NCBI GenBank assembly: GCA_964187785.1 | Contig: OZ076409.1 | Span: forward strand, 75,518,001-75,582,000 | Direction: 5' to 3' | DNA: 64,000 nt | From: Amphiscolops sp. MND2022 | Lineage: Eukaryota | Part shown: positions 1 through 22,111 of the stretch, one piece after another | Numbering within the stretch: position 1 is the stretch's first letter | How the letters are laid out: each line of letters starts with the position of its first letter | Translations under genes and position numbers: made by a program | Notes under the pieces: generated by a model | What the model was told of the DNA's origin: nothing | Database searches by the model: none | The model's input: only the letters and a program-made list of their open reading frames with translations

Positions 1-242
1 CGACATTTTCATAGAGTTAAATCTTGGTAATCTGTCTGGATATGCAGAAAAACCAGTACGTGCTTTTTTATACCAAGTTGCTTACAACGACAATTATTTT
101 ATATCAACGCCCCCATATTTATCAACGCCCCCCGTCCGTGGGCATGCCGAGGCATGCCCTTCGACGACGTATACCAAAATATGTTCGAGCGCGTTAGCCT
201 AGGTGCCGGGACTTCTATTCGATAAAGTATGTGGCGCGCCTT

Positions 243-254
243 GGGTAGGGTCCC
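243..254 (+). other. Conserved head motif GGG(T/G)AGGG(C/T)CC (representative copy)
   Basis: Found about 40-50 bp after the junction in all four families (243, 6654, 42752, 44147) although the surrounding sequence differs. Confidence 0.85.
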
Positions 255-310
255 TTGCGCGCTCTTGGGTATGGTGTTCACCAGCTAGGAAACAGGGGTC
301 GATTTTTCGG

Positions 311-591
311 GATCTCCTAAACTAGCCACACGATTTGGCTGAAATTTGGCACACGTACCCCCCTCGGCACGGTGAAGATGATTTCCTACTGACGTTTTTC
401 CCGCAAAATTTTTTTTGTTGTCCAAAATAACGGTTTTTGGGGTAAAATTTCGAATTTTTTTTAAATTTTATCTTATATCTCGCCACGGGTTTACGCTAGC
501 GCTTCAAAACCCTGCTAAAGAAAGCTCGCAAACTGTCTCAGGAATGCGGTGTGAAATTTTCAGCTCAATCGGACTCAAACTCAGGGAGATA
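311..591. repeat. Imperfect inverted repeat pair in the 5' part of family A units (representative copy)
   Basis: 311-354 GATCTCC...CGATTTGGCTGAAATTTGGCACAC versus 549-591 GTGTGAAATTTTCAGCTCAATCG...GGAGATA. Confidence 0.75.
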
Positions 592-1176
592 TAGCGTTTT
601 TCCGGAGCGGGGGGGTTTCATTTTTCTAACGGTCCAGCTTATCTTAGCCATTTTTTCGAAAATGTACTCGCCTAAAGACCTCCCCTGGCCGGTTTTATTC
701 CCAGCAAAACCATTTGGCCCTAAATACGGAGTTTCAGCGTTCCAGCATTCCCGGGCGAAAAGTTGTGGGACTTAGAAAATTTCAAAAATTTTCAAAATTT
801 TTTTTTTCCGTTTTCCGCCCTCCCCCCCTAGGGGAAAAGACCCCCCAACCAGTAATTTGAGTGATTTCATGTGGAAAGGCCATGTTTAGAGGAGAAAAAA
901 GCCGTTTAGAACGTCTTTTTATCTTGGCTCAACGTTGACTTATGACGTTTTGAAGGTGATGTTTGGAGGTGTAAAGCACGTGAATAGTAAACGTTATGAG
1001 TATTTATCTGATCTGAAAGCCATTGAGATGCAACCTGTTTTGCTCAAAACGTAATTCATTGCAGTTTGGCAGTCAATCATCACCCTTTGTTGTCGTTTGA
1101 CATACTTTTTTGTTGTTATAATAAAAAATTTTGTGTATTAATTCATTTTTTTCTCATCAAATAACTTGAAACAGTT

Positions 1177-1221
1177 GAGTACATTCCATCCCCCCTTCAC
1201 GGGGGAGATGAGAATGTACTC
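1177..1221. other. Conserved long hairpin of family A (representative copy)
   Basis: Consensus GAGTACATTC-CATCTCCC-loop-GGGAGATG-A-GAATGTACTC, roughly 250-290 bp before the junction in every complete A unit. The loop is variable. Confidence 0.9.
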
Positions 1222-1391
1222 GCAAAAAGCCCCGAACTACGGCCCTTACCTTCCTGAGCTACGCAGTATAAAGATTGCATATTGGTTCCGACATTTTGAT
1301 AGAGTTATATCTTGGTAATCTGTCTGGGTATGCAGAAAAACCAGCACGTGCTTTTTTATACCAAGTTGCTCACAACGACATTTATTTTATA

Positions 1392-1493
1392 TCAACGCCC
1401 CCATATTTATCAACGCCCCCCGTCCGTGGGCATGCCGAGGCATGCCCTTCGACGACGTATACCAAAATATGTTCGAGCGCGTTAGCCTAGGTG
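1392..1493 (+). other. Conserved terminal module (representative copy): TCAACGCC x2, GGGCATGCC-GA-GGCATGCCC palindrome, TTCGACGACGT, variable tail, CTAG|GTG
   Basis: The palindrome lies at 1428-1447 here and is present before 44 of 48 junctions, in families A, B and C. Confidence 0.92.
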
Positions 1494-4400
1494 CCGGGAT
1501 TTCCATTCGATAAGGAATTCTGCGCGTGTGGGTAGGGCCCCTGGCGCGCTCCTGTGTTTTCGGTTTTCCTACTCCTAAATAGGCCCCCTGAATTCCGGGA
1601 TCTCGTAAACTAGCCATACGATTTGGCTGAAATTTGGCACACGTACCCCCCTCGGCACGGTGAAGATGATTCCCTACTGACGTTTTGCCCGCTAAACATT
1701 TTTTGTTGACCAAAATAACGGTTTTTGGTGGAAAATTTTTGATTTTTTTTAAATTTCATCTTATATCTCGCCACGGGTTTACGCTAGCGCTTCAAAACCT
1801 TGCTGACGAAAGTTTGCAAACTGTCTCAGGAATGCGGTGTGAAATTTTCAGCTCAATCGGACATAAACTCGAGGAGATATCGCGTTTTTCCGGAGCGGGG
1901 GGGTTTCATTTTTCTAACGGTCCAGCTTATCTTTGCCATTTTTTCGAAAATGCACTCGCCTAAAGGCCTCCCCTGGCCGGTTTTACTCCCAAAAAAACCA
2001 TTTGGCCCTAAATACGGAGTTTCAGCGTTCTAGCATTCTCGGGCGAAAAGTTGTGGGACTTAGAAAATTTCAAAAATTTTCAAAAAAATTTTTTTTTGTT
2101 ATTTGGGCCCCCAAAGTGGGGGAAAGGACCCCCCAACCATTAATTTGAGTGAAAGCATGTGCAAAGCCCTTGTATAGAGGAGAAAAATGCCGTTTAGAAC
2201 ATCTTTTTATCTTTACTCAACGTTGACTTATGACGTTTTGAAGGTGACCGTTAGATATGGAAAATTGATGTTTTGAGTATTTATCTCATCTGAAAGCCAT
2301 TGAGATACAACATGTTTTGCTCAAAACGGGTTTCATTGCAGTTTCGCTGTCTATTAACACCCTTTGGTGACTTTTGACATGTTTTTGCTTTTATATAAAA
2401 CCAATTTTTTGTGCATTTTTTCTTTTTTTTCATCTAATATCTTGAAACAGTTGAGTACATTCCATCTCCCTTCCCGGGGGAGATGAGAATGTACTCGCTA
2501 AAAGCCAAGAACTACGGCCAATACCTTCCCGAGCTACGCACTACAATTATTGCATATGCATGCAGACCTTTTGATACATTTTTATCTTTGTAGATTGACT
2601 GGAAAAACCGAAAACTCTGTCCTGATTATACAAAGTTTCCTCACAACGACACATGTTTACGTCAACGCCCCATAGTTCTTATCAACGCCCCCCGTCCGTG
2701 GGCATGCCGTGGCATGCCCTTCGACGACGTGCACCAAAATATATTCGAGCGCGGTAGCCGCTAGGTGCCGGGATTTCTATTCGATAAAGTATGTGGCGCG
2801 CCTTGGGTAGGGTCCCTTGCGCGCTCTTGGGTATGGTGTTCACCAGCTAGGAAATAGGGGTCGATTTTTCGGGATCTCCTAAACTAGCCACACGATTTGG
2901 CTGAAATTTGGCACACGTACCCCCCTCGGCACGGTGAAGATGATTTCCTACTGACGTTTTGCTCGCAAAATTTTTTTTGTTGTCCAAAATAACGGTTTTT
3001 GGGGTAAAATTTTGAATTTTTTTTAAATTTTATCTTATATCTCGCCACCGGTTTACGCTAGCGCTTCAAAACCCTGCTAAAGAAAGCTTGCAAACTGTCT
3101 CAGGAATGCGGTGTGAAATTTTCAGCTCAATCGGACTTAAACTCAGGGAGATATAGCGTTTTTCCGGAGCGGGGGGGTTTCATTTTTCTAACGGTCCAGC
3201 TTATCTTAGCCATTTTTTCGAAAATGTACTCGCCTAAAGACCTCCCCTGGCCGGTTTTATTCCCAGCAAAACCATTTGGCCCTAAATACGGAGTTTCAGC
3301 GTTCCAGCATTCCCGGGCGAAAAGTTGTGGGACTTAGAAAATTTCAAAAATTTTCAAAATTTTTTTTTCGGTTTTCCGCCCTCCCCCCCCGAGGGGAAAA
3401 GACCCCCCAACCAGTAATTTGAATGAATTCATGTGGAAAGGCCATGTTTAGAGGAGAAAAATCCCGTTTAAATCGTCTTTTTATCTTTATTCAACGTTGA
3501 CTTATGACGTTTTGAAGGTGATGTTTGGAGGTGTAAAGCACGTGAAAAGTAAACGTTATGAGTATTTATCTGATCTGAAAGCCATTGAGATGCAACCTGT
3601 TTTGCTCAAAACGTAATTCATATCAGTTTGGTAGTCAATCAACACCCTTTGTTGTCATTTGACATCTTTTTTTGTTGATATAAGAAAAAATTTCGTGTAT
3701 TTATTCATTTTTTTCTCATCAAATAACTTGAAACAGTTGAGTACATTCCATCCCCCCTTCACGGGGGAGATGAGAATGTACTCGCAAAAAGCCCCGAACT
3801 ACGGCCCTTACCTTCCTGAGCTACGCAGTATAAAGATTGCATATTGGTTCCGACATTTTGATAGAGTTATATCTTGGTAATCTGTCTGGGTATGCAGAAA
3901 AACCAGCACGTGCTTTTTTATACCAAGTTGCTCACAACAACATTTATTTTATATCAACGCCCCCATATTTATCAACGCCCCCCGTCCGTGGGCATGCCGA
4001 GGCATGCCCTTCGACGACGTATACCAAGATATGTTCGAGCGCGTTAGCCTAGGTGCCGGTGTTTTTTTACACAAAGGGGGATGTTGCGCGTGTGGGGAGG
4101 GTCCCTGACGCGCTCCCGGGATTTCGGATTTTTTAACCTTTACGTACCCATCAAAAATTTTGGGATCTCGAAAACTAGCCGTACGATTTGGCTGAAATTT
4201 GGCACACGTACCCCCCTCGGCACGGTGAAGATGATTCCCTACTGACGTTTTGCTCGCTAAACATTTTTTGTTGACCAAAATAACGGTTTTTGGGGTAAAA
4301 TTTTCAACTTTTTTTAAATTTCATCTTATATCTCGCCACGGGTACACGCTAGCGCTTTCAAACCTTGCCGACGAAAGTTTGCAAACTGTCTCAGGAATGC

Positions 4401-6614
4401 TGTGTGAAATTTTCAGCTCAATCGGACTAAAACACGAGGAGATATAGCGTTTTTCCGGAGCGGGGGGGTTTCATTTTTCTAACGGTCCAGCTTATCTTTG
4501 CCATTTTTCCGAAAATGTAATCGCCTAAAGGCCTCCCCTGGCCGGTTTTATTCCCAGCAAAACCATTTGGCCCTAAATACGGAGTTTCAGCGTTCCAGCA
4601 TTCCCGGGCGAAAAGTTGTGGGACTTAGAAAATTTCAAAAATTTTCAAAATTTTTTTTTTCCGTTATTTGGGCCCCCAAAGTGGGGGAAAAGACCCCCCA
4701 ACCAGTAAAGCAAGTGAATGCATGTGCAAAGCCCTTGTTTGGACGAGAAAAATGCCGTTTAGAACGTCTTTTTATCTTGGCTCAACGTTGACTTATGACG
4801 TTTTGAAGGTGATGTTTGGAGGTGTAAAGCACGTGAATAGTAAACGTTATGAGTATTTATCTGATCTGAAAGCCATTGAGATGCAATATGGTTTGCTCAA
4901 AACGTAATTCATGGCAGTTTGGCAATCAATCAACACCCTTTGTTGTCGTTTGACATACTTTTTTGTTGTTATAAAAAAAAATTTTGTGTATTTATTCATT
5001 TTTTTCTCATCAAATAATTTGAAACAGTTGAGTACATTCCATCCCCCCCTTCCGGGGGAGATGAGAATGTACTCGCAAAAAGCACCGAACTACGGCCCTT
5101 ACCTTCCCGAGCTACGCAGTATAAGGATTACATATTGGTTCCGACATTTTCATAGAGTTATTTCTTGGTAATCTGTCTGGATATGCCGAAAAATCAGCAC
5201 GTGCCTTTTAATACCAAGTTGCTCACAACGACAATTATTTTATATCAACGCCCCCATATTTATCAACGCCCCCCGTCCGTGGGCATGCCGAGGCATGCCC
5301 TTCGACGACGTATACCAAGATATGCGTTAGCGCGGTAGCTGCTAGGTGGCCGGGAATTTTTTTTTCAGCAAAATCTTTGCCGCTGGGGGAGGGGCCCCGG
5401 GCGGCTGTTAACCGGAATTCATACTATGCAAAACCTATCACAATTCTCAGATCTCAGGATCCAGCCTGTAGGATTCGCTCAAATTTGGCACAGAGCCTCC
5501 TTGAAAGATTATAAGAACTTTTTCCTAGTGGCGTTTTTCGATTGAAATATTTTATGTTGACCAAAATTGCGTTTAAAATGCCCATTGTTGCGTTTTTATT
5601 GTCTTTTTCGAATTTGACGGTCCATAACTTTTTTTGAGGTGCTCGGAGCGGGTCGCACGTGGAGAACAATAGTACTCAGCACTAAAAGGGGAGTGCGTGA
5701 ACAAAATTTCGTCCAAATCGGATGAAAATTGGATGAGTAATAGCCGGAAATTTGGCGCATTTTGTCGACTTTTTTCGAAAACCCAGTCTATCTCTGCCGT
5801 TTTTTGCCCAGATTTTTTTCCAGGTCCTCGCCTAAAGGCCTCCCCTGGCCGGTTTACATCCCAAAAAAGCCGTTTGGCCCTTTTGCCGCAGTTTCAGCGT
5901 TCCAGCGTTTCCCGAATAAAAGATAAATGACTTAGAATTTTTTCAAAAAATGTTCAAAATTTTTTTTTTCAATTTCAGGCCTCCCAAAGTCAAGAAACTT
6001 CTACACAACTAGTATTGCAAGTGAATGCATGTGGAAAGTGCATGAATAGACGAGGAAAATGAGCTATTATAAAACTCTGTAGCTTAACCTGACGTTGACT
6101 TATGACATTTTTAGTGTGAGCTTCCTATGTGCTAAAAAATCAAAAAAACGTAAGTCTCTTTGAAAACAAATCGGAATACGTCCAGTCAACCCCAGAGCTG
6201 GTACATTGCCGTTGTCTAGTGCAGCAACGCCATTTAGAGTCTTTTGACCCACTTTGATACCGTTTTGATACCGTCTTATTCATCCGATAGCACAAAACTG
6301 TTGCGTACATTCCATCTCCCCCTTTATGGGGGAGATGAGAATGTACCCGCTAAATGACACGCACAATGGCGCAATTTTATTTTTTTACAATGTTTTCTAG
6401 GCTTTCGCGCAAGCCCACTAATATTTAGACTGGTTTTTTCCTCTTTCACTCCAAACTTTCCCTACTAACCACCTTACACACCATCAGCTCAACGTTACTT
6501 CTGTAACGTCAACGCCACATACTCGCATCAACGCCCACCGTCCGTGGGCATGCCGAGGCATGCCCTTCGACGACGTATGCCCATTAGCGCCACAGGGCGC
6601 CCAATTTTTTCTAG

Positions 6615-8580
6615 GTGCGGGGGGGAAACCCCTTCCTTTATCTTGGAGGATTCGGGTAGGGTCCTGAATCCGATTTTAGTTCGCCCAGCTCTCAGTAGAA
6701 ATCTGGGAAATTTTTTGCGATCTCGTGATCTAACCATAGGATTTTAAAGTTGGAGCGGCCCCCACCAGATTTTCCAAAGTTATTCGCCCCCCACCGGGTT
6801 CCAGCGTGATTGAAATATTTTGACGGGGTACACGGGCGACCGTTAGGGGTCATTTTGGGGGTAAAATTTATATCCGGTCGCATAACTTTTTTCCTGTTGG
6901 ATTAAAACTTTGGGACCCTGCTAAAAGTTTCTTGACCGTGTTGCGGGGGCTCCGGAGGTCCAAACCAAATTTTTCTATCTTGAAGCTATCTCCAAGTACC
7001 CCCCCGCCCAAAACGTTATTTTTCCGGAAACGCAGGTTTTTGACCCGGAAGGAGTCGTCGGAGCGCGGGGTCGTTAGGTGATGTATTGGGGACGGCCTTG
7101 AGACGAAGTGGGGGACATGCAGTTTGCCAACCCCAGTTTACCCCCCGGACGGGAAATGACCGTTATATGAGCGGGAAAAATGCCCCCCTCCACGTTTTAC
7201 CGCTATTTCCGGTGTGAAGGAGTGGGAGTAGCGCGTCGGGTGCCATATATCAAAAGTAGGTTTGAACAAGGAACTATCGGAAACATGTGGTTTGGGACCC
7301 CCTGGACCAACCCGTTAGCGGGAAATGGGGCTTCCGCCTCCTTTTTTTACTGCTAAAACAGTAAAATGGGCATTGAGGGGTAAATATCTCGTGAACGCGT
7401 GGAGCTACGGTGTCCATCACTACTACAAGGTTTCATACCCATGATATGGTGCCTTCAGGGGGGCAAACAGATTTCCGCTATCTATCACCGTTACCGACTT
7501 GGCCCCCCAGCCTAACCGCTATGTGACCGGAAATGTCACTTTTTGAGCCCAAAGGGTCGGTCCCAGCCGGGGAACGTTAGGTAAATTACTGTAGTACTCA
7601 ATGAGACGAGTTGGGGGATATAGTTTCAGTCACCCCCCGTTACCCCTTGGGACCGGAAATGACCGTTATGTGGGTAAAATTGCAATTTTTATACTTTTTC
7701 AAGTGTATTTAGGTGCGGAAGGAGTGGTAATAGGTGCTTGGACACTATATGAGGTAAGGGAGGACGTGAGGCGAGCATTCGGAAATAACCGTTATGTTGA
7801 CCCTAAAGTCCCCCTGGTACCGTAAACGACCGGAAATGGTCAAATTTTGTGTCTATTGGGTACAAATGTTTAGTATTTTGTAGATAAAAGTATCTATTAG
7901 GTGTTTCGACGGTCTGCAGTAGTGAACATAGTCATGAAACCTTGTGGGGGGTAACGGTATATAGCACCGGAAGTCCAAACCGTTGGTGACAGGATAGGTT
8001 TTTTGGTTTTAAAATGTCTTTCGGCGTACCTTTGTCGACTATTAAGGACTATTTTTAAAAATTAAAGATTTTCCATATAGTTTCAGAGACCTCGAAACCT
8101 CAACCAACATAACCGTTACCTCATGATAGCCTTTCAAGTTGGCCTGGTGTCAACTTGGAAGGGCTATCCTTCAAAAATCGTCAATCAAGTGTGTTTTTGG
8201 GTATGTTTGTATCATTTTAGAATCAATTAGAGCTTCAAGAAAAGTTTCCCAACAACAAAAACTATGTCGTGAAGATTCCGTTACTAGAATTATAGTAAGC
8301 AAATTGTTGAGAAAATTTTTTTTTCCAAATTAAATGTGTCCTAAATGCCAGGAAACCTATTTTACTAACAAATAGTATTGATTGGAATGTATGTAACAGA
8401 TTTATAAAAGTTCAAATTATTAAGTTTCATTATGGAAGCTGAAACGTAATATTTTAGTTTAATTAACGTCAACGCCACATACTTTACATCAACGCCCACC
8501 GTCTGTGGGCATGCCGAGGCATGCCCTTCGACGACGTATACCAAATACATACCTAACGACGCCCGTACATCCCGGGCTAG
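6615..8580. mobile_element. Family B unit (1966 bp), putative non-autonomous mobile cassette
   Basis: Body is not alignable by eye to family A. It starts GTGCGGGGGG, has GGGTAGGGTCC at +40 and ends in the shared palindrome module plus CTAG. It is homologous to 16274-18246, 24670-26640 and 29223-31195. The repeat is certain; mobility is inferred. Confidence 0.7.
8125..8168. other. Long imperfect hairpin of family B (representative copy)
   Basis: GATAGCCTTTCAAGTTG-gcctggtgt-CAACTTGGAAGGGCTATC, present with minor changes in all four B units. Confidence 0.8.
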
Positions 8581-11500
8581 GTGCCGGGATTTCTATTCGA
8601 TAAAGTATGTGGCGCGCCTTGGGTAGGGTCCCTTGCGCGCTCTTGGGTATGGTGTTCACCAGCTAGGAAACAGGGGTCGATTTTTCGGGATCTCCTAAAC
8701 TAGCCACACGATTTGGCTGAAATTTGGCACACGTACTCCCCTCGGCACGGTGAAGATGATTTCCTACTGACGTTTTTCCCGCAAAATTTTTTTTGTTGTC
8801 CAAAATAACGGTTTTTGGGGTAAAATTTTGAATTTTTTTTAAATTTTATCTTATATCTCGCCACGGGTTTACGCTAGCGCTTCAGAACCCTGCTAAAGAA
8901 AGCTTGCAAACTGTCTCTGGAATGCTGTGTGAAAATTTCAGCTCAATCGGACTCAAACTCGGGGAGATATAGCGTTTTTCCGGAGCGGGGGGGTTTCATT
9001 TTTCTAACGGTCCAGCTTATCTTTGCCATTTTTTCGAAAATGCACTCGCCTAAAGGCCTCCCCTGGCCGGTTTTATTCCCAGCAAAACCATTTGGCCCTA
9101 AATACGGAGTTTCAGCGTTCCAGCATTTCCGGGCGAAAAGTTGTGGGACTTAGAAATTTTCAAAAATTTTCAAAATTTTTTTTTTCGTTATTTGGGCCCC
9201 CAAAGTGGGGGAAAAGACCCCCCATCCAGTAAAGCAAGTGAATGCATGTGCAAAGCCCTTGTTTGGACGAGAAAAATGCCGTTTAGAACGTCTTTTTATC
9301 TTGGCTCAACGTTGACTTATGACGTTTTGAAGGTGATGTTTGGAGGTGTAAAGCACGTGAATAGTAAACGTTATGAGTATTTATCTGATCTGAAAGCCAT
9401 TGAGATGCAATATGGTTTGCTCAAAACGTAATTCATTGCAGTTTGGCAATCAATCAACACCCTTTTTTGTCGTTTGACATACTTTTTTGTTGTTATAATA
9501 AAAAATTTTGTGTATTTTTTCATTTTTTTCTCATCAAATAACTTGAAACAGTTGAGTACATTCCATCCCCCCCTTCCGGGGGAGATGAGAATGTACTCGC
9601 AAAAAGCACCGAACTACGGCCCTTACCTTCCCGAGCTACGCAGTATAAGGATTACATATTGGTTCCGACATTTTCATAGAGTTATATCTTGGTAATCTGT
9701 CTGGATATGCCGAAAAATCAGCACGTGCCTTTTAATACCAAGTTGCTCACGACAACAATTCTTTTATATCAACGCCCCCATATTTATCAACGCCCACCGT
9801 CCGTGGGCATGCCGAGGCATGCCCTTCGACGACGTGCACCAAGATATGCTATAACGCGTTAGCCTAGGTGCCGGTGTTTTTTTACACAATGGGGGAAGTT
9901 GCGCGGTTGGGGAGGGTCCCTGACGCGCTTCCGTGGTATCGGGTCTTTCAACCGATGAAAACGACATAAAAAATTGGGATCTCGTAAACTAGCCATACGA
10001 TTTGGCTGAAATTTGGCACACGTACCCCCCTTGGCACGGTGAAGATGATTCCCTACTGACGTTTTGCCCGCTAAACATTTTTTGTTGACCAAAATAACGG
10101 ATTTTGGGGTAAAATTTTCAACTTTTTTTAAATTTCATCTCATATCTCGCCACGGGTACACGCTAGCGCTTCCAAACCTTGCTGACGAAAGTTTGCAAAC
10201 TGTCTCAGGAATGCTGTGTGAAATTTTCAGCTCAATCGGACTTAAACTCGAGGAGATATAGCGTTTTTCCGGAGCGGGGGGGTTTCATTTTTCTAACGGT
10301 CCAGCTTATCTTTGCCATTTTTTCGAAAATGCACTCGCCTAAAGGCCTCCCCTGGCCGGTTTTATTCCCAGCAAAACCATTTGGCCCTAAATACGGAGTT
10401 TCAGCGTTCCAGCATTCCCGGGCGAAAAGTTGTGGGACTTAGAAAATTTCAAAAATTTTCAAAATTTTTTTTTCCGTTATTTGGGCCCCCAAAGTGGGGG
10501 AAAAGACCCCCCAACCAGTAAAGCAAGTGAATGCATGTGCAAAGCCCTTGTTTAGAGGAGAAAAATGCCGTTTAGAACGTCTTTTTATCTTGGCTCAACG
10601 TTGACTTATGACGTTTTGAAGGTGATGTCTGGAGGTGTAAATCACGTGAATAGTAAACGTTATGAGTATTTATCTGATCTGAAAGCCATTGAGATGCAAT
10701 ATGGTTTGCTCAAAACGTAATTCATGGCAGTTTGGCAATCAATCAACACCCTTTGTTGTCGTTTGACATACTTTTTTGTTGTTATAATAAAAAATTTTGT
10801 GTATTTGTTCATTTTTTTCTCATCAAATAACTTGAAACAGTTAAGTACATTCCATCCCCCCCTTCCGGGGGAGATGAGAATGTACTCGCAAAAAGCAGCG
10901 AATTACGGCCCTTACCTTCCCGAGCTACGCAGTATAAGGATTACATATTGGTTCCGACATTTTCATAGAGTTAAATCTTGGTAATCTGTCTGGATATGCA
11001 GAAAAATCAGCACGTGCCTTTTAACACCAAGTTGCTCACAACGACAATTATTTTATATCAACGCCCCCATATTTATCAACGCCCCCCGTCCGTGGGCATG
11101 CCGAGGCATGCCCTTCGACGACGTATACCAAGATATGCGTTAACGCGTTAGCCTAGGTGGCCGTGTCTTTTCGACGTGCTTTTGCATTGAGGAGTGGGTA
11201 GGGCCCCGCGACGACCTAGAAGAATTGGATGCTCACCGAAACGTGCAGAATTCTACGAGATCTCATAGTTTGAGCCATACGATTTTGCTGAAATTTGGCA
11301 TGTGGCCTGGAATTGGTGAGTAGGTAAAACGTGGAGGTGATTTTTCCCAAATTCCACTGTGAGACGAGATATGGGCAAATAACGGTCCCAAAAATGGCAA
11401 AAATGCACTTTTTTCAACTTTGTCAGCCCATATCTCGTTCCCAGGTGCCCGGAGCGGGACGCGTTAAGCTGATTATAAACTCTAGGGTGTTGAGGCTGTA

Positions 11501-13715
11501 CGGGGAAGTCAGGCCCGTTCCGATCGGACCTGTAGTCTTGGAGAAATAACGGTATTTTTGGGGAACCTTTTCTAACGGTCCAGCTTATCTTTGCCATTTT
11601 TTCGAAAATGTACTCGCCTAAAGGCCTCCCCCTGGCCGAATTTACTCCCAGCAAAACCATTTGGCCCTAAATACGGAGTTTCAGCGTTCCAGCATTCCCG
11701 GGCGAAAAGTTGTGGGACTTGGAAAATTTTCAAAAATTTTCAAAAATTTTTTTTTTTCGTTTTCCGGGCCCCCAATGAAGGGGAAACGACCCCCCAACCA
11801 GTATTTTGAGTGAATTCATGTGGAAAGCCCTTGTTTTGACGAGAAAAATACCGTTTAGAACATCTTTTTATCTTGACTCAACGTTGACTTATGACGTTTT
11901 GAATGTGATGTAAGGATGTAGGAGGCATGTGATAAGTTGATGTTTTGAGCCTTATCTCATATGAAAGCGGTTGAGATGCAAGCTGTCCTGCTCAAAACGT
12001 CTTTCGTTGTAATTTTGCAGTGCAACAATACCCTTTGGTGTCATATAAACATACTTTTTGTCGATATATTAACAATTTTAATGTATTTATTCCAATTTTT
12101 ATTATCTTATAACTCAAAACAGTTGAGTACATTTCATCTCCCTTTCGGGGGAGATGAGAATGTACTCGCTAAAGACCTAGCGCCATGACCAAAAGTTTGA
12201 AACCCACGTTTTTTATCTTCTTACAGACTTGTTTTTGTATTTTTTCGGAATTTTTTAAAAATTAATATACTTGAAATACATTACTTGACTTTACTACTAC
12301 AACCCACCTCCAACGACAACGCCCCCCTGCTTGCATCAACGCCCACCGTCCGTGGGCATGCCGAGGCATGCCCTTCGACGACGTATGCCAAATGCCCAGT
12401 GCCACGCAGTCATTATCGCTAGGTGCCGGTGTTTTTTTACACAAAGGGGGATGTTGCGCGTGTGGGGAGGGTCCCTGACGCGCTCCCGGGATTTCGGATT
12501 TTTTAACCTTTACGTACCCATCAAATATTTTGGGATCTCGAAAACTAGCCGTACGATTTGGCTGAAATTTGGCACACGTACCCCCCTCGGCACGGTGAAG
12601 ATGATTCCCTACTGACGTTTTGCTCGCTAAACATTTTTTGTTGACCAAAATAACGGTTTTTGGGGTAAAATTTTCAATTTTTTTTAAATTTCATCTTATA
12701 TCTCGCCACGGGTACACGCTAGCGCTTCCAAACCTTGCTGACGAAACCTTGCAAACTGTCTCAGGAATGCTGTGTGAAATTTTCAGCTCAATCGGACTTA
12801 AACTCGGGGAGATATAGCGTTTTTCCGGAGCGGGGGGGTTTCATTTTTCTAACGGTCCAGCTTATCTTTGCCATTTTTTCGAAAATGCACTCGCCTAAAG
12901 GCCTCCCCTGGCCGGTTTTATTCCCAGCGAAACCATTTGGCCCTGAATACGGAGTTTCAGCGTTCTAGCATTTTCGGGCGAAAAGTTGTGGGACTTAGAA
13001 AATTTCAAAAATTTTCAAAAAAAAATTTTTCCGTTATTTGGGCCCCCAATGTGGGGGAAAGGACCCCCCAACCAGTATTTTGAGTGAATGCATGTGCAAA
13101 GCGCTTGTTTAGAGGAGAAAAATGTCGTTTAGAACGTCTTTTTATCTTTACTCAACGTTGACTTATGACGTTTTGAAAGTGATGTAAAGAGGTGTGAAGC
13201 ACGTGAAAAGTAAACGTTATGAGTATTTATTTGATCTGAAAGCCATTCAGATGCAATCTGATTTGCCCAAAACGTAATTCATTTCAGTTTGGCAGTCAAT
13301 CAACACCCTTTGTTGTCGTTTGACATATTTTTTTGTTGATATAATAAAAAATTTTGTGTATTTATTTATTTTTTTCTCATCAAATAACTTGAAACAGTTG
13401 AGTACATTCCATCTCCCTTCCCGGGGGAGATGAGAATGTACTCGCAAAAAGCCCCGAACTATGGCCCTTACCTTCCCGAGCTACGCAGTATAAAGATTGC
13501 ATATTGGTTTCGACATTTTGATAGAGTTATATCTTGGTAATCTGTCTGGATATGCAGAAAAATCAGCACGTGCCTTTTTATACCAAGTTGCTCACAACGA
13601 CAATTATTTTATATCAACGCCCCCATATTTATCAACGCCCCCCGTCCGTGGGCATGCCGAGGCATGCCCTTCGACGACGTGCACCAAGATATACCCCGAA
13701 CGCGGTAGCGGCTAG
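8581..13715. repeat. Family A units 7-10
   Basis: Units 8581-9867, 9868-11156, 11157-12422 and 12423-13715 carry the family A blocks. Confidence 0.95.
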
Positions 13716-16273
13716 GTGCCCAAATCCATCGATTTACCTTCATTTTGAGGGCGGGGTAGGGCCCACGCCCGGTTCAACAGGCTTTAGACTGACAACGTTA
13801 AGCCATTTCGCAAAATGGAAGCGATTTTCTAAACGAGCCGTCAGATTTTGCTGAAATTTTGCATGCGGCTTCCTCTAGCAATTCTAAGAACTAATCCCTA
13901 CTGGCGTTTTGCCCGGAAAATTTTTTTTGTTGACTTATAGACAATTTTAGGTCCAAAAAATGGCGTTTTTTTGGAAAAATTTTTTTTAAGAGCCTATATC
14001 TCGCTCCCAGGTGCCCGTAGCGACCAGACCTCGGACGGTACTATTGCTGGGCACTTCGTAAGGAGCCCGTAGACAAATTTTCGTACAGATCGGATAAAAA
14101 TTGATAGAGTAATAGCCGCCGATTTGGCGAATTTTTTCGACATTTTTCGAAATCCCAGTCTATCTCTGCCGTTTTTTGCCCAGATTTTTTTCCAGGACCT
14201 CTCCTAAAGACCTCCCCTGGCCGGTTTACCTCCCAAAAAAACCATTTGGCCCTTTTGCCGCAGTTTCAGCGTTCCAGGATTCCCCGGGTAAAAGTAAAAT
14301 GTCTTAGAATTTTTTCGAAAAATTTTCAAAAATTTTTTTTTCAACTTCAGGCCTCCCAAAGTCAAGAAACGTCCACACAACTAGTATTGCAAGTGGATGC
14401 ATGTGGAAAGTGCTCGAATAGACGAGAAAAATGAGCTATTATAAACCTCTGTAGCTCAACCTGACGTTGACTTATGACAATTTTAATGTGAGCTTGCTAT
14501 GTGAGAAAAAATTTCAAAAATTGAAAATTGAAGCTAAGTCTCATCCAAAACTCATCCGAATACGTTCAATCCATCCCAAAGCGGTTTATTTCCAGCTATA
14601 GAGTGCAGCAACACCGTTCAAGGTCATTTGACCCATTTTAATAGGTTTTGACTCTGTCTTATCCATCCGAAAGTTCGAAACAGTTAAGTACATTCCATCT
14701 CCCCTCCGTGGGAGATGGTAATGTACTCGCAAAAAGCCAAGTATTACCACCCTATTCTATCCGTAGTGGTGCTAGAAATGCAGTAGCGGGAGCGCCAGGC
14801 TGTTTACAGTAGCTTTTATGGGTGTTGTGACTATGTATTACAAATCTAACTATGTTACTGAACGTGAAAAAGTTGTTTCAATCCAGTTTTTTCCCACATT
14901 TTTTTATGTCATCAATAAAGATATATCCATGCATTTACTACTACCTACCCCATCACCCGCCCCCTCCACTATCTGTTCAACCGTGCACGTCTAGGTGCCA
15001 AGCTTTGACCAGCAACCCAACTCTTTGAGGGCGGGGTAGGGCCCCCAGCCCGAACATAAGGCTTTAGACTTTCAACGTAAGGCCGATGGTACTACCTAAT
15101 AGCGATTTCGAAAACGGCCCGTCAGATTTTGCTCAAATTTTGCATACGGCTTCCTATACCAATCCTAAGAACTATTTCCTACTGGCGTTTTGCCCAAAAA
15201 AATTTTTTTGTGGGTCAAAATCTTAGTTTTTTGGTCAAAAAATGGCATTTTTTTGGAAAAAAATTTTTTAAGAGTCAATATCTCGTCCCACAGGCCCCGG
15301 ATCAAAAAGTGTACAATTGTTCGTTTGTTAGGCACTTCATGAACTGTCCGTAGACAAATTTTCGTCCAGATCGGAATAAAATTGACTGAGTAATAAAAAA
15401 CTTTGAAAGTGATTTTGACGTCATTTTTCGAAAACCTAGTCTATCTCTGCCGTTTTTTGCCCAGATTTTTTTCCAGGACCTCTCCTAAAGGCCTCCCCTG
15501 GCCGGTTTACCTCCCAGAAAAACCATTTGGCCCTTTTGCCGCAGTTTCAGCGTTCCAGGATTCCTTGAGTAAAGTAAAATGACTTAGAATTTTTTCGAAA
15601 AATTTTCAATAAAAAATTTTTTTTTCTTCAGGCCTCCCAAAGTCAAGAATTGTCCACACAACTAGTATTGCAAGTGGATGCATGTGGAAAGTGCTCGAAT
15701 AGACGAGAAAAATGAGCTATTATAAACCTCTGTAGCTTAATCTGACGTTGACTTATGACAATTTTAGTGTGAGCTTGCTATGTGAGAAAAAATTTCAAAA
15801 ATTGAAAATGGGAACTAAGTCTCATCCAAAACTCATCCGAATACGTTCAATCCATCCCAAATCGGTTTATTTTCAGCTGTTCAGTGCAGCAACACCATTA
15901 AAGGTCATTTAACCCACATTTATAAGTTTTGACACCGTCTTATCCATCCGAAAGTTCGAAACAGTTAAGTACATTCCATCTCCCCTCCGTGGGAGATGGT
16001 AATGTACTCGCAAAAAGCCAAGTACTATCGCCCCATTCTACCCGTAGTGGTGCTAGAAATGCAGTAGCGGGAGCGCCAGGCTGTTTAAAGTAGCCTTTAC
16101 GGGTGTTGTGACTGTATAACAAATCTAACTATGTTACTGAACGTGAAAAAGTTGTTTCAATCCAGTTTTTTCCCACATTTTTTTATGTCATCAATAAAGA
16201 TATATCCATGCATTTACTACTACCTACCCCATCACCCGCCCCCTCCACTATCTGTTCAACCGTACACGTCTAG
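13716..16273. repeat. Two family A variant units (1279 bp each) with an alternative terminus lacking the GGGCATGCC palindrome
   Basis: Units 13716-14994 and 14995-16273 keep the internal A blocks but end CCTACCCCATCACCCGCCCCCTCCACTATCTGTTCAACCGT(G/A)CACGTCTAG. Confidence 0.93.
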
Positions 16274-18246
16274 GTGCGGGGGGGTAACCCCTACAAAGAT
16301 ATTGGAGGATTCGGGTAGGGTCCTGAATCCGAGTTCAGTGCTGCCAGCTATCGTTAGGGATTTTAGAAAATTTTGCCGATCTCGTGATCTAACCGTAGGA
16401 TTTTAAAGTTGGAGCGGCCCCCACCTGATTTTCCAAAGTTATTCGCCCCCCACCGGGTTCCAGCGTGATTGAAATATTTTGACGGGGTACACGGGCGACC
16501 GTTAGGGGTCATTTTGGGGGTAAAATTTATATCCGGTCGCATAACTTTTTTCCTGTTGGTTTAAAACTTTGAGACCCTGCTAAAAGTTTCTTGACCGTGT
16601 TGCAGTGGCTCCGGAGGTCCAAACCAAATTTTTCTATCTTGAAGCTATCTCCAAGTACCCCCCCGCCCAAACCGTTATTTTTCCGGAAACGCAGGTTTTT
16701 GACCCGGAAGGAGTCGTCTGAGCGCGGGGTCGTTAGGTGATGTATTGGGGACGGCCTTGAGACGAAGCGGGGGACATGTAGTTTGCCGACCCCTGTTTAC
16801 CCCCCGGACGGGAAATGACCGTTATTTGAGCGGGAAAAATGCCCCCCTCCACGTTTTACCGCTATTTCCGGTGTGAAGGAGTGGGAGTAGCGCGTCGGGT
16901 GTTATATAACAAAAGTAGGTTTAGACAAGGACCTATCGGAAACATGTAGTTTGAGACCCCCTGGACCAACCCGTTAGCGGGAAATGGGGCTTCCGCCTCC
17001 TTTTTTTACTGCTAAAACCGTAAAATGGGCATTGAGGGGTAAATATCTCGTGAACGCGTGGAGCTACAGTGTCCATCACTACTACAAGGTTTCACACCCA
17101 TGATATGGTGCCTTCAGGGGGGCAAACAGATTTCCGCTATCTATCACCGTTACCGACTTGCCCCCCCAGCCTAACCGCTATGTGACCGGAAATGTCACTT
17201 TTTGAGCCCAAAGGGTCGGTCCCAGCCGGGGAACGTTAGGTAACTTATTGTAGTGCTAATTGAGACGAGTTGGGGGATATAGTTTCAGTCACCCCCCGTT
17301 ACCCCTTAGGACCGGAAATGACCGTTATGTGGGTAAAATTGCAATTTTTATACTTTTTCAAGTGTATTTAGGTGCGGAAGGAGTGGTAATAGGTGCTTGG
17401 ACACTATATGAAGGAAGGGAGGACGTGAGGCGAGCATTCGAAAATAACCGTTATGTTGACCCCGAAGTCCCCCTGGTACCGGAAGTGACCCGTAATGGTC
17501 AAATTTCGTGTTTTTAGGGTACAAATATTTGGTGTTTTATGGATAACAGTGCCTATTAGGTGTTTCGACGGTCTGCAGTCGTGAACATAGTTATGAAACC
17601 TTGTGGGGGGTAACGGTATATAGCACCGGAAGTCCAAACCGTTGGAGACAGGATAAGTTTTTTGGTTTTAAATGTCTTTCGGCCTACTTTTGTCGACTAT
17701 TATGGACTATTTTTGGAAAATAAAGTTTTTCCATATAGTTTCAGAGACTCCGAAACCTCAACCAACATAACCGTTACCTTATGATAGCCTTTCAAGTTGG
17801 CCTGGTGTCAACTTGGAAGGGCTATCCTTCAAAAATCATTAATCCAGTGTGTTTTTGAGTATGCTTGTTTTACTTTAGAATCAATTAGAGCTTCAAGAAA
17901 AGATTGCCAACGACAAAAACTATGTCGTGATGATTCCGTTATTAGAATAATAGTTACCAAAATGTTGATAAAGTTGATTTTTTACATTTCAAATATGTCC
18001 TAAATGCCAAAAAACCTATTTACCAAACAAATGGAATTGATTGAATTGTATATAGAAGCTAATAAAAGTTCAAATTGAATATTACATTTCATTATGCAAG
18101 CTGAAACGTCAAATTATAGTTTAATTAACGTCAACGCCACGTACTTTACATCAACGCCCACCGTCCGTAGGCATGCCGAGGCATGCCTTTCGACGACGTA
18201 TACCAAATTCCACCCACACAACACCCTCGAGCGCGGTAGCCGCTAG
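16274..18246. mobile_element. Family B unit (1973 bp)
   Basis: Homologous to 6615-8580. Its last bases (CGAGCGCGGTAGCCGCTAG) are of the family A type. Confidence 0.7.
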
Positions 18247-20832
18247 GTGCCGGGATTTCTATTCGATAAAGTATGTGGCGCGTGTGGGTAGGGTCCCTGG
18301 CGCGCTCTTGGGTATGGTGTTCACCAGCTAGGAAATAGGGGTCGATTTTTCGGGATCTCGTAAACTAGCCGTACGATTTGGCTGAAATTTGGCACACGTA
18401 CCCCCCTCGGCACGGTGAAGATGATTCCCTACTGACGTTTTGCTCGCTAAACATTTTTTGTTGACCAAAATAACGGTTTTTGGGGTAAAATTTTCAACTT
18501 TTTTTAAATTTCATCTTATATCTCGCCACGGGTACACGCTAGCGCTTTCAAACCTTGCCGACGAAAGTTTGCAAACTGTCTCAGGAATGCTGTGTGAAAT
18601 TTTCAGCTCAATCGGACTAAAACACGAGGAGATATAGCGTTTTTCCGGAGCGGGGGGGGGGGTTTAATTTTTCTAACGGTCCAGCTTATCTTTGCCATTT
18701 TTCCGAAAATGTAATCGCCTAAAGGCCTCCCCTGGCCGGTTTTATTCCCAGCAAAACCATTTGGCCCTAAATACGGAGTTTCAGCGTTCCAGCATTCCCG
18801 GGCGAAAAGTTGTGGGACTTAGAAAATTTCAAAAATTTTCAAAATTTTTTTTTTCCGTTATTTGGGCCCCCAAAGTGGGGGAAAAGACCCCCCAACCAGT
18901 AAAGCAAGTGAATGCATGTGCAAAGCCCTTGTTTGGACGAGAAAAATGCCGTTTAGAACGTCTTTTTATCTTGGCTCAACGTTGACTTATGACGTTTTGA
19001 AGGTGATGTTTGGAGGTGTAAAGCACGTGAATAGTAAACGTTATGAGTATTTATCTGATCTGAAAGCCATTGAGATGCAATATGGTTTGCTCAAAACGTA
19101 ATTCATGGCAGTTTGGCAATCAATCAACACCCTTTGTTGTCGTTTGACATACTTTTTTGTTGTTATAAAAAAAAATTTTGTGTATTTATTCATTTTTTTC
19201 TCATCAAATAATTTGAAACAGTTGAGTACATTCCATCCCCCCCTTCCGGGGGAGATGAGAATGTACTCGCAAAAAGCACCGAACTACGGCCCTTACCTTC
19301 CCGAGCTACGCAGTATAAGGATTACATATTGGTTCCGACATTTTCATAGAGTTATTTCTTGGTAATCTGTCTGGATATGCCGAAAAATCAGCACGTGCCT
19401 TTTAATACCAAGTTGCTCACAACGACAATTATTTTATATCAACGCCCCCATATTTATCAACGCCCCCCGTCCGTGGGCATGCCGAGGCATGCCCTTCGAC
19501 GACGTATACCAAGATATGCGTTAGCGCGGTAGCTGCTAGGTGCCGGTGTTTTTTTACACAAAGGGGGATGTTGCGCGTGTGGGGAGGGTCCCTGACGCGC
19601 TCCCGGGATTTCGGATTTTTTAACCTTTACGTACCCATCAAAAATTTTGGGATCTCGAAAACTAGCCGTACGATTTGGCTGAAATTTGGCACACGTACCC
19701 CCCTCGGCACGGTGAAGATGATTCCCTACTGACGTTTTGCTCGCTAAACATTTTTTGTTGACCAAAATAACGGTTTTTGGGGTAAAATTTTCAATTTTTT
19801 TTAAATTTCATCTTATATCTCGCCACGGGTACACGCTAGCGCTTCCAAACCTTGCTGACGAAACCTTGCAAACTGTCTCAGGAATGCTGTGTGAAATTTT
19901 CAGCTCAATCGGACTTAAACTCGGGGAGATATAGCGTTTTTCCGGAGCGGGGGGGTTTCATTTTTCTAACGGTCCAGCTTATCTTTGCCATTTTTTCGAA
20001 AATGCACTCGCCTAAAGGCCTCCCCTGGCCGGTTTTATTCCCAGCGAAACCATTTGGCCCTAAATACGGAGTTTCAGCGTTCTAGCATTTTCGGGCGAAA
20101 AGTTGTGGGACTTAGAAAATTTCAAAAATTTTCAAAAAAAATTTTTTCCGTTATTTGGGCCCCCAATGTGGGGGAAAGGACCCCCCAACCAGTATTTTGA
20201 GTGAATGCATGTGCAAAGCGCTTGTTTAGAGGAGAAAAATGTCGTTTAGAACGTCTTTTTATCTTTACTCAACGTTGACTTATGACGTTTTGAAAGTGAT
20301 GTAAAGAGGTGTGAAGCACGTGAAAAGTAAACGTTATGAGTATTTATTTGATCTGAAAGCCATTCAGATGCAATCTGATTTGCCCAAAACGTAATTCATT
20401 TCAGTTTGGCAGTCAATCAACACCCTTTGTTGTCGTTTGACATATTTTTTTGTTGATATAATAAAAAATTTTGTGTATTTATTTATTTTTTTCTCATCAA
20501 ATAACTTGAAACAGTTGAGTACATTCCATCTCCCTTCCCGGGGGAGATGAGAATGTACTCGCAAAAAGCCCCGAACTATGGCCCTTACCTTCTCGAGCTA
20601 CGCAGTATAAAGATTGCATATTGGTTTCGACATTTTGATAGAGTTATATCTTGGTAATCTGTCTGGATATGCAGAAAAATCAGCACGTGCCTTTTTATAC
20701 CAAGTTGCTCACAACGACAATTATTTTATATCAACGCCCCCATATTTATCAACGCCCCCCGTCCGTGGGCATGCCGAGGCATGCCCTTCGACGACGTGCA
20801 CCAAGATATACCCCGAACGCGGTAGCGGCTAG
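18247..20832. repeat. Family A units 14-15
   Basis: The body of 18247-19539 matches 4053-5345 but has a different head. Unit 19540-20832 is near-identical to 12423-13715. Confidence 0.95.
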
Positions 20833-22111
20833 GTGCCAAGCTTTGACCAGCAACCCAACTCTTTGAGGGCGGGGTAGGGCCCCCAGCCCGAACATAAGGC
20901 TTTAGACTTTCAACGTAAGGCCGATGGTACTACCTAATAGCGATTTCGAAAACGGCCCGTCAGATTTTGCTCAAATTTTGCATACGGCTTCCTATACCAA
21001 TCCTAAGAACTATTTCCTACTGGCGTTTTGCCCAAAAAAATTTTTTTGTGGGTCAAAATCTTAGTTTTTTGGTCAAAAAATGGCATTTTTTTGGAAAAAA
21101 ATTTTTTAAGAGTCAATATCTCGTCCCACAGGCCCCGGATCAAAAAGTGTACAATTGTTCGTTTGTTAGGCACTTCATGAACTGTCCGTAGACAAATTTT
21201 CGTCCAGATCGGAATAAAATTGACTGAGTAATAAAAAACTTTGAAAGTGATTTTGACGACATTTTTCGAAAACCTAGTCTATCTCTGCCGTTTTTTGCCC
21301 AGATTTTTTTCCAGGACCTCTCCTAAAGGCCTCCCCTGGCCGGTTTACCTCCCAGAAAAACCATTTGGCCCTTTTGCCGCAGTTTCAGCGTTCCAGGATT
21401 CCTTGAGTAAAGTAAAATGACTTAGAATTTTTTCGAAAAATTTTCAATAAAAAATTTTTTTTTCTTCAGGCCTCCCAAAGTCAAGAATTGTCCACACAAC
21501 TAGTATTGCAAGTGGATGCATGTGGAAAGTGCTCGAATAGACGAGAAAAATGAGCTATTATAAACCTCTGTAGCTTAATCTGACGTTGACTTATGACAAT
21601 TTTAGTGTGAGCTTGCTATGTGAGAAAAAATTTCAAAAATTGAAAATGGGAACTAAGTCTCATCCAAAACTCATCCGAATACGTTCAATCCATCCCAAAT
21701 CGGTTTATTTCCAGCTGCTCAGTGCAGCAACACCATTAAAGGTCATTTAACCCACATTTATAAGTTTTGACACCGTCTTATCCATCCGAAAGTTCGAAAC
21801 AGTTAAGTACATTCCATCTCCCCTCCGTGGGAGATGGTAATGTACTCGCAAAAAGCCAAGTACTATCGCCCCATTCTACCCGTAGTGGTGCTAGAAATGC
21901 AGTAGCGGGAGCGCCAGGCTGTTTAAAGTAGCCTTTACGGGTGTTGTGACTGTATAACAAATCTAACTATGTTACTGAACGTGAAAAAGTTGTTTCAATC
22001 CAGTTTTTTCCCACATTTTTTTATGTCATCAATAAAGATATATCCATGCATTTACTACTACCTACCCCATCACCCGCCCCCTCCACTATCTGTTCAACCG
22101 TACACGTCTAG
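20833..22111. repeat. Family A variant unit with alternative terminus
   Basis: Near-identical to 14995-16273 and the same length (1279 bp). Confidence 0.93.

What the first reader, a model, noticed from the sequence alone, without database searches (positions are those of the whole stretch)
104..205. Terminal palindrome module under apparent structural selection
Seen: GGGCATGCC-GA-GGCATGCCC is the most invariant sequence in the window. The variants noticed alter the loop (GT near 2709, 42648 and 54065; GG near 26576) or both arms together: 18169-18188 reads AGGCATGCC-GA-GGCATGCCT, a compensatory pair. It is usually preceded by TCAACGCC twice at 18-20 bp spacing (about two helical turns). In many copies an overlapping alternative stem GCCCAC-cgtcc-GTGGGC is possible. 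Inference: a hairpin/cruciform or dimeric protein site with iteron-like repeats that specifies cleavage about 40 nt away. That is farther than the roughly 10-15 nt typical of canonical Helitron 3' hairpins.
Basis: partly seen in the sequence, partly recalled or inferred. Interest (0 to 1): 0.72.

Follow-up and report, generated by a model that had tools for sequence, protein, structure and literature searches.

The report
Self-stacking array of mobile DNA cassettes
The palindrome is one end-signal of small, gene-less jumping DNA units that have stacked head to tail, in shuffled order, always at the same seven-letter joint; it also looks like a binding site for the p53 stress protein, but it is not needed for the cut itself.

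Summary
The palindrome is real. It occurs 44 times and lies in the most invariant 37-mer of the main unit family (2 changes against a median of 112). "Structural selection" is not shown: there is one two-sided change (67 of 500 shuffles reach it), and the flanks are just as invariant.

The window is a head-to-tail array of 47 complete non-coding units (1.05-1.97 kb, four body families), all joined at CTRG|GTG. Identity left and right of the joint is independent, and a recent two-unit duplicate differs by one precisely added unit. The units are therefore shuffled site-specifically at a 7-bp core.

Four of 48 joints have no palindrome upstream, so it cannot be what specifies the cut. More universal signals are a covarying left-end stem-loop about 40 nt after the joint (47 of 48) and a long internal hairpin (47 of 47).

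The palindrome matches the p53-family response element at 19 of 20 positions in 41 of 44 copies. Best reading: non-autonomous rolling-circle-like elements that insert at each other's junctions, with the module as an accessory protein-binding site. They fail the Helitron1 and Helitron2 end tests. Host and mobilising enzyme were not found.

The parts
104..129 (+). Two TCAACGCC repeats (104-111 and 122-129) at the head of the right-end module
   Evidence: two exact copies in 33 of 44 modules
133..166 (+). Invariant core of the module; can fold as an extended 14-pair bulged hairpin
140..159 (.). Palindrome: two self-complementary GGCATGCC octamers 2 nt apart; 19 of 20 match to the p53-family element RRRCWWGYYY x2 with spacer 0
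199..205 (+). Junction core CTAG|GTG, the crossover point between units (47 such joints plus one CTGG|GTG)
233..264 (+). Left-end stem-loop with the fixed motif GGKAGGGBCC (244-253) and family-specific covarying arms; 39-48 nt after the joint in 47 of 48 units
1177..1221 (.). Long internal hairpin, type A, in all 41 units of the 1.27-1.31 kb superfamily, about 260-275 nt before the right end
203..1490 (+). One complete unit (1288 bp) of the main superfamily; non-coding
6615..8580 (+). 1.97-kb unit family (also 16274, 24670, 29223): body not alignable to the main family, same left-end motif and module, different long hairpin (type B, 8125-8168), three ACCGGAARTG per unit
12423..16273 (+). Three units; the outer two match the pair at 19540-22111 with 4 and 3 differences; the middle unit (13716-14994) is gained or lost exactly at the inner joint
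13716..16273 (+). Two units without the module that still end in CTAG|GTG (a third is at 20833-22111)
18169..18188 (.). The one two-sided arm variant (A..T), also present in L001
42704..44105 (+). 1.40-kb unit: own body, type-B hairpin (43775-43817), module, four ACCGGAARTG
44106..45151 (+). 1.05-kb unit without the module, with a third long hairpin (44903-44952), ending in CTGG|GTG
1..64000 (+). Whole window: uninterrupted same-orientation array, 48 joints and 47 complete units

Best explanation
The units are non-autonomous mobile elements moved by an enzyme encoded elsewhere. The likeliest enzyme is an HUH (rolling-circle) transposase acting on single-stranded ends. SHOWN: units are gained, lost and shuffled whole at a 7-bp core CTRG|GTG; nearly every left end carries a sequence-plus-structure signal about 40 nt in; every unit has a long internal hairpin; the palindrome module is optional. 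INFERRED: the enzyme recognises the left-end stem-loop, nicks in the core, copies one strand to the next CTRG (sometimes reading through one unit), and inserts at an existing junction, because a junction looks like its own origin. Each insertion makes one more target, so mixed arrays grow from within. The palindrome module is an accessory protein-binding site, plausibly for a host p53/p63-family tetramer or for the transposase. It favours copying or targeting at the junction 40-55 nt downstream but does not set the cut.
For: Junction: positions -4 to +2 are invariant in 48 of 48 joints except one A-to-G, and the flanks vary. Identity left and right of a joint is uncorrelated over 1081 pairs (rho -0.04), and tracts of 600-900 nearly identical bases stop at the joint. 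The right-end spacer tracks its own unit (AMI 0.52, 0 of 2000 permutations) and not the next left end (AMI -0.001, p 0.48). Dimer with one added unit. L001, a 70-78% relative, is also tandem, with CGAG|GTG. One contig of run X1 joins, at the same core, a right end and a left end that are not neighbours in the window (single contig, depth 2, weak). [quoted passage not shown] Spacings of 38-54 and 39-48 nt are not helically fixed. Left-end arms fold better with their own partner than as chimeras (8 types, p 0.011). Long hairpins of three different sequences, z -5.3 to -8.3 in 8 of 8 representatives, are present in 47 of 47 units.
Against: No transposase gene was found: 21 of 21 ORFs have no Pfam match, no host genome is held, and collection scans were blank but for L001. 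Helitron1 end rules fail (no 5'-TC, no A|T target), and so do Helitron2 rules (no terminal inverted repeat of 11 bp or more). Plain rolling-circle amplification would give runs of identical units; here neighbours are not significantly alike (p 0.086). The left-end hairpin is weak in 3 of 8 types, and RNAalifold on the MAFFT alignment finds only 3 pairs and no two-sided change. Which strand folds is unresolved. The exact cut inside CTAGGTG cannot be placed. p53 binding is untested, the host is not known to be an animal, and the invariant G at position 10 departs from the p53 consensus.
Confidence: 0.45

Rival explanations
1. Crypton-like or integron-like cassettes: a tyrosine (or serine) recombinase excises units as circles and re-inserts them by conservative crossover in the 7-bp core. 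The left-end motif and the module are arm-type binding sites.
For: Each unit is formally flanked by a short direct repeat; Cryptons have 4-6 bp terminal direct repeats and a proposed circular intermediate (PMC3212892 passages). A 7-bp core fits the 6-8 bp crossover region described there. Unit-precise gain or loss at an inner joint is what such a recombinase does.
Against: No 11-13 bp inverted arms flank the core; the flanks are variable. The putative arm sites lie at variable, unphased distances. Core variants CTGG and CGAG are tolerated. No recombinase ORF.
Confidence: 0.25
2. Site-specific retroposons read on the minus strand: the module is an internal 5' promoter (p53-responsive), the left-end stem-loop is the 3' signal for a reverse transcriptase, and the unit ending in CTGG is a 5'-truncated copy joined by microhomology.
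For: Right ends are swapped between unrelated bodies (the 1.40-kb unit shares its spacer type with 1.27-kb units). Module-less families have unrelated right ends. p53 sites in LINE1, Alu and LTR elements are known (PMC3485254 abstract).
Against: 46 of 47 units end in CTAG at full family length; there is no poly(A) or repeat tail and no variable duplication. No Rfam family at gathering score in 64 kb, no tRNA, no hammerhead core on the + strand of 5 units and one A-rich chance match on the - strand.
Confidence: 0.12
3. One reading: the palindrome with its iterons is the obligatory recognition hairpin or cruciform that fixes the cut about 40 nt away.
For: Most invariant block; shared by bodies that cannot be aligned; all variants keep the hairpin. 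Fungal Helitron2 elements have 3' hairpins 38-51 bp from the end (PMC5148889 passages). Each module-less unit can be read as inserted behind a module-bearing end, so a target-side role is possible.
Against: 4 of 48 exact joints lack it; spacing is 38-54 nt; there is a single two-sided change.
Confidence: 0.1
4. Ordinary long-unit satellite shuffled by homologous exchange, or an assembly artefact.
For: The array is tandem and non-coding; bodies are mosaic internally; AA/TT periodicity of 10-11 bp.
Against: Homologous exchange or graph mis-walks would switch in the 37-bp identical module, not at 7 bp between variable flanks; the switch maps to the core. Four body families alternate. The same architecture is in L001.
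Confidence: 0.05

Closest known systems
Helitron1 / HLE1 non-autonomous elements (Helraiser as the tested model)
   Same: CTRR 3' end; subterminal palindrome; no target duplication; right-end signal dispensable and bypassed; head-to-tail joints and tandem arrays reported (PMC4778049, PMC5876387, PMC11417382 passages).
   Different: Left end is GTG, not TC; no A|T target; the conserved palindrome is 38-54 nt from the end instead of about 11; a conserved left-end stem-loop; the array mixes families instead of repeating one unit.
Helitron2 / Helentron (HLE2), e.g. FoHeli1-2
   Same: Hairpins at both termini, the 3' one 38-51 bp from the end; self-insertion is described (PMC5148889 passages).
   Different: No asymmetric terminal inverted repeat; no T|T target; ends in CTRG.
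Cryptons (tyrosine-recombinase DNA transposons)
   Same: No terminal inverted repeats; short direct repeat at both ends; proposed circle; non-autonomous derivatives exist (PMC3212892 passages).
   Different: No recombinase found; no inverted arms around the core; the passages seen say animal Cryptons lacked terminal repeats and describe no mixed arrays.
Replitrons
   Same: Orientation-specific HUH elements with short terminal direct repeats and a right-end hairpin; Replitron-1 inserts after RG, as in CTRG here (PMC10288648 passages).
   Different: No fuzzy ends or variable duplications here; no Rep gene; the passages seen describe no mixed arrays.
p53 response elements in transposons (EnSpm-N6_DR, LINE1, LTRs)
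   Same: A near-consensus zero-spacer p53-family element inside a non-autonomous element.
   Different: Here it is shared across unrelated bodies next to a recombination joint; binding is untested and the host unknown.

Membership tests
Helitron1 (HLE1) | 3' end CTRR | tested here: met
   CTAG in 47 and CTGG in 1 of 48 joints; L001 has CGAG
Helitron1 (HLE1) | 5' end TC | tested here: not met
   GTG in 48 of 48
Helitron1 (HLE1) | Insertion between A and T | tested here: not met
   All joints read G|G; array ends and solo copies were not available
Helitron1 (HLE1) | Short hairpin about 10-12 nt before the 3' end | tested here: inconclusive
   A 5-bp GCGCC/GGCGC hairpin lies 14-15 nt from the end in one spacer type only; other types differ or lack one. 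The conserved palindrome is 38-54 nt away
Helitron1 / Helitron2 | RepHel transposase in an autonomous partner | not testable with these tools
   No host genome held; no Pfam hit in 21 ORFs
Helitron2 / Helentron (HLE2) | Asymmetric terminal inverted repeats of 11-17 bp | tested here: not met
   44 distinct end pairs: no contiguous match of 11 bp; only 2 of 44 had p below 0.05 against shuffles
Helitron2 / Helentron (HLE2) | Hairpin at both termini | tested here: met
Helitron2 / Helentron (HLE2) | T|T insertion site | tested here: not met
Crypton | 4-6 bp terminal direct repeats, no terminal inverted repeats | tested here: met
   7-bp core at both ends of each unit, which follows from the tandem layout
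Crypton | Recombinase site with 11-13 bp inverted arms around a 6-8 bp core | tested here: not met
   Flanks variable and not inverted
Crypton | Tyrosine recombinase gene | not testable with these tools
Replitron | Y1 Rep (HUQ, GYxxK) gene | not testable with these tools
Replitron | Short terminal direct repeats and a right-end palindrome | tested here: met
p53-family response element | RRRCWWGYYY x2 with spacer 0-13 | tested here: met
   At most 1 mismatch in 41 of 44 copies; 0.15 expected in shuffles; about 2-3 in 10,000 random 9-2-9 palindromes match; consensus from PMC3794606
p53-family response element | Bound by a p53/p63/p73 protein of the host | not testable with these tools
   Host unknown; needs a binding assay
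Known structured RNA, ribozyme or SINE | Rfam match, tRNA head or hammerhead core | tested here: not met

The most novel reading that the evidence does not exclude
An undescribed class of eukaryotic self-targeting mobile cassettes. Unrelated non-coding elements share one junction code (left-end stem-loop plus CTRG|GTG) and build integron-like shuffled arrays by inserting into each other's joints. Most carry a p53-family site that switches on mobilisation of the downstream neighbour when DNA is damaged, and module-less units ride on their neighbours' signal.
Probability: 0.2. Interest if true: 0.85.

Novelty: new variant of a known kind. Interest (0 to 1): 0.56.

Why it matters
Helitron tandem arrays are usually explained as rolling-circle concatemers of one element. 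This array mixes four families and is shuffled at a 7-bp core, which needs an enzyme that targets its own junctions. If found, that enzyme would be a site-specific integrase for kilobase cargo that regenerates its target, and the system would be a new route from transposons to satellite-like DNA. A near-perfect p53-type site kept across unrelated elements would make a standing question testable: whether DNA transposons use p53 as an on-switch instead of only being repressed by it.

Tried and rejected
Host genome: none held; L001 lies in no held record.

Collection scans: blank in viral contigs for 4 of 4 patterns, in prokaryote genomes for 2 of 2, and in plasmids and phages. The metagenome scan gave one contig.

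Sequencing runs: no RNA holder listed. High-depth spots (43648-43684, 44668-44704, 45745-45781) are short matches with loose ends and were ignored.

Coding: 0 of 21 ORFs match Pfam; gap lengths are not enriched for multiples of three (23 of 124).

RNA families: one chance hit at E 0.71 in the first 9 kb; none at gathering score; no tRNA.

Structure tests that gave nothing: pairing between the right end and its own left end; terminal inverted repeats; guide-like or HDV-like pairing of the first 10 nt with the left-end hairpin (p 0.58 and 0.48); hammerhead core; strand bias of wobble pairs. The whole-unit RNA fold had z -2.2 and -2.7 on only 8 shuffles, so it says little.

Considered and dropped: restriction-ligation concatemer (128 of 175 CTAG sites are not joints, and all units face one way); kinetoplast minicircles (GGGGCGTTG recalls CSB-1, from memory, but I saw no conserved CSB-3 and did not test this formally); tandem GT-AG introns (no exons between units).

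Literature: no paper in the library holds GGCATGCCGAGGCATGCC or its reverse complement. Searches listed nothing that, in the listings or passages seen, describes mixed-family arrays with exact joints. Repbase and Dfam could not be searched, so the families may be catalogued there. Look-ups of earlier scan findings gave nothing relevant.

Full report
OBSERVATION. The palindrome GGGCATGCC-GA-GGCATGCCC is at 140-159 and recurs 44 times on the + strand. Over 37 module-bearing units of the main family (40 aligned, the 3 without module dropped), the 37-mer CGTCCGT-palindrome-TTCGACGACG needs 2 changes on a tree, the next best window 15 and the median 112. It is therefore the most invariant block. 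The flanks, however, are as invariant as the palindrome (1 and 0 changes against 1). On 8 distinct haplotypes, including L001, a 14-pair extended hairpin is kept in every cell, but only one pair changes on both sides, and 67 of 500 shuffles reach that. The same variant is in L001, whose module matches the copy at 18169 at 100% over 51 nt, so one origin cannot be excluded. Two exact TCAACGCC precede 33 of 44 copies, and the alternative stem is possible in 21 of 44. The palindrome-to-CTAG distance is 38-54 nt.

WHAT THE WINDOW IS. It is a non-coding array (longest ORF 166 aa; 0 of 21 ORFs in Pfam) with 48 joints, 47 CTAG|GTG and one CTGG|GTG at 45152. Of 47 complete units, 41 are 1265-1313 bp, four 1966-1973, one 1402 and one 1046. 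The first group ranges from about 65% to 99.8% identity; the bodies of the other groups do not align to it beyond short patches. At the joint only CTRGGTG is fixed, and CTAGGT occurs nowhere else on the + strand (47 of 47).

THE JOINT IS A CROSSOVER POINT. For all 1081 pairs of the 47 CTAG joints, identity to the left and to the right are uncorrelated (rho -0.04). The longest shared tracts (up to 882 nt on the left, 893 on the right) stop within a few bases of the core. The short spacer between module and CTAG follows the body of its own unit and not the next left end. The units at 12423-13715 and 14995-16273 differ from the adjacent pair at 19540-22111 by only 4 and 3 bases, but have a third unit between them, which differs from the unit at 20833 from its sixth base on. 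One unit was thus added or removed exactly at an inner joint, and the pair itself begins and ends at joints. Homologous exchange or assembly error would switch in the 37-bp identical module instead. L001, a 1172-bp metagenome contig at 70-78% identity, shows the same order with CGAG|GTG. Two public runs hold short contigs of several unit families, and one contig of X1 joins a right end of the type at 24669 to a left end of the type at 46427, a combination absent from the window (one contig, depth 2.1, laid at 80% likeness, so weak).

ANATOMY OF A UNIT. (1) Left end: GTG, then GGKAGGGBCC 39-48 nt in, in 47 of 48 units; the exception at 51563 is broken by a local 21-22 bp duplication. The arms around the motif differ between types, yet native arm pairs fold better than chimeras (8 types, -7.6 against -5.1 kcal/mol, p 0.011), with 3 of 8 types weak. 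RNAalifold could not register the arms. (2) A long hairpin 200-410 nt before the right end in 47 of 47 units, in three different sequences, z -5.3 to -8.3 in 8 of 8 representatives; type A has two pairs with two-sided changes among 20 rows. (3) The module, in 44 of 48 right ends. (4) CTRG. The ends at 14994, 16273, 22111 and 45151 have no module and no local similarity to it.

THE MODULE. GGCATGCC is self-complementary, so the palindrome is also a direct repeat with CATG cores 10 bp apart. This is the layout of the p53-family element RRRCWWGYYY x2 (PMC3794606 passages). 41 of 44 copies match with one mismatch, against 0.15 expected by chance; the 44 copies are related, so this is one observation, and a random 9-2-9 palindrome matches with probability 2-3 in 10,000, before allowing for the many motifs one could have compared. 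All variation falls on positions 1, 11 and 20 of the 20-mer, the edges of the decamers, which fits a protein site as well as a hairpin. The invariant G at position 10 and the invariant flanks fit neither simple reading and point to further sequence-specific contacts. ACCGGAARTG, which I recall as an ETS-type motif, occurs 16 times, only in the 1.97- and 1.40-kb families (0.3 expected); this hints at an animal host but does not show one. p53 elements in a non-autonomous DNA transposon have precedent (PMC3485254, abstract only).

MECHANISM. Shown: whole-unit, same-orientation gain, loss and shuffling at a 7-bp core. Inferred (0.45): an HUH rolling-circle enzyme from an unseen partner reads the left-end stem-loop, nicks in the core, ends at CTRG, and inserts into existing joints. 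Helraiser needs its left end, tolerates loss of the right end or its hairpin, bypasses 3' ends and makes exact CTAG-to-left-end circles (PMC4778049 and PMC5876387 passages); this matches the optional module, the CTGG end and the two-unit copy. For the module alone I put about even odds on a host p53-type site and on a transposase or target-side site; the two do not exclude each other.

COMPARISON. It works like a non-autonomous rolling-circle element but is not a member of Helitron1 (no TC, no A|T target) or Helitron2 (no terminal inverted repeat; no T|T target), by the definitions in PMC11417382 and PMC5148889 (passages). Crypton and Replitron features are met only in the short direct repeat (PMC3212892 and PMC10288648 passages). 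Passages of PMC13085455, PMC11934779, PMC12001565 and PMC13404089 describe Helitron-linked tandem DNA, but not mixed arrays with exact joints. The plant paper on centromeric Helitron arrays (Xiong 2016) was seen only as a citation. No supplements were read; terminal sequences listed there could bear on membership. Repbase and Dfam were not available.

VERDICT. The more surprising object is the array, not the palindrome. Host, enzyme and exact cut are unknown. Interest 0.56; new variant of a known kind.

Noticed in passing
window 7526-7838, 17185-17487, 25582-25894, 30135-30447, 43272-43624: 16 copies of ACCGGAARTG (ETS-like, label recalled), all on the + strand and only in the 1.97- and 1.40-kb families; 0.3 expected.
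   Followed up: partly
window 1177-1221, 8125-8168, 43775-43817, 44903-44952: Every unit has a long hairpin 200-410 nt before its right end, in three different sequences; possibly a priming or pausing signal.
   Followed up: yes
window 51586-51636: The only left end without the GGKAGGGBCC motif; a 21-22 bp local duplication replaces it.
   Followed up: partly
whole window: AA/TT autocorrelation peaks at 10-11, 20 and 31 bp over 8 representative units, suggesting bent or nucleosome-phasing DNA.
   Followed up: no
whole window: CpG observed/expected is 1.03 and there is no excess of CpG transitions in 8 close units: little sign of methylation-driven decay.
   Followed up: partly
window 671-742 and its counterparts: Mid-body blocks (CCTAAAGRCCTCCCCTGGCC; AAAACCATTTGGCCC...GAGTTTCAGCG) are the next most conserved after the module and are partly kept in L001; function unknown.
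   Followed up: no
window 4053-5345, 32469-33733, 42704-44105: Units are mosaics: left ends, bodies and right-end spacers are also exchanged inside units, including between families whose bodies do not align.
   Followed up: partly
41 units, e.g. window 203-1490: Length stays within 1265-1313 bp although identity falls to about 65% and 124 distinct gaps occur; a size constraint is possible.
   Followed up: no
all joints: Each unit begins GT, and 46 of 47 end in AG, like an intron, with nothing between units; probably coincidence.
   Followed up: no
L001 880-886: The relative's joint reads CGAG|GTG with the left-end motif 39 nt later and only one TCAACGCC upstream.
   Followed up: yes
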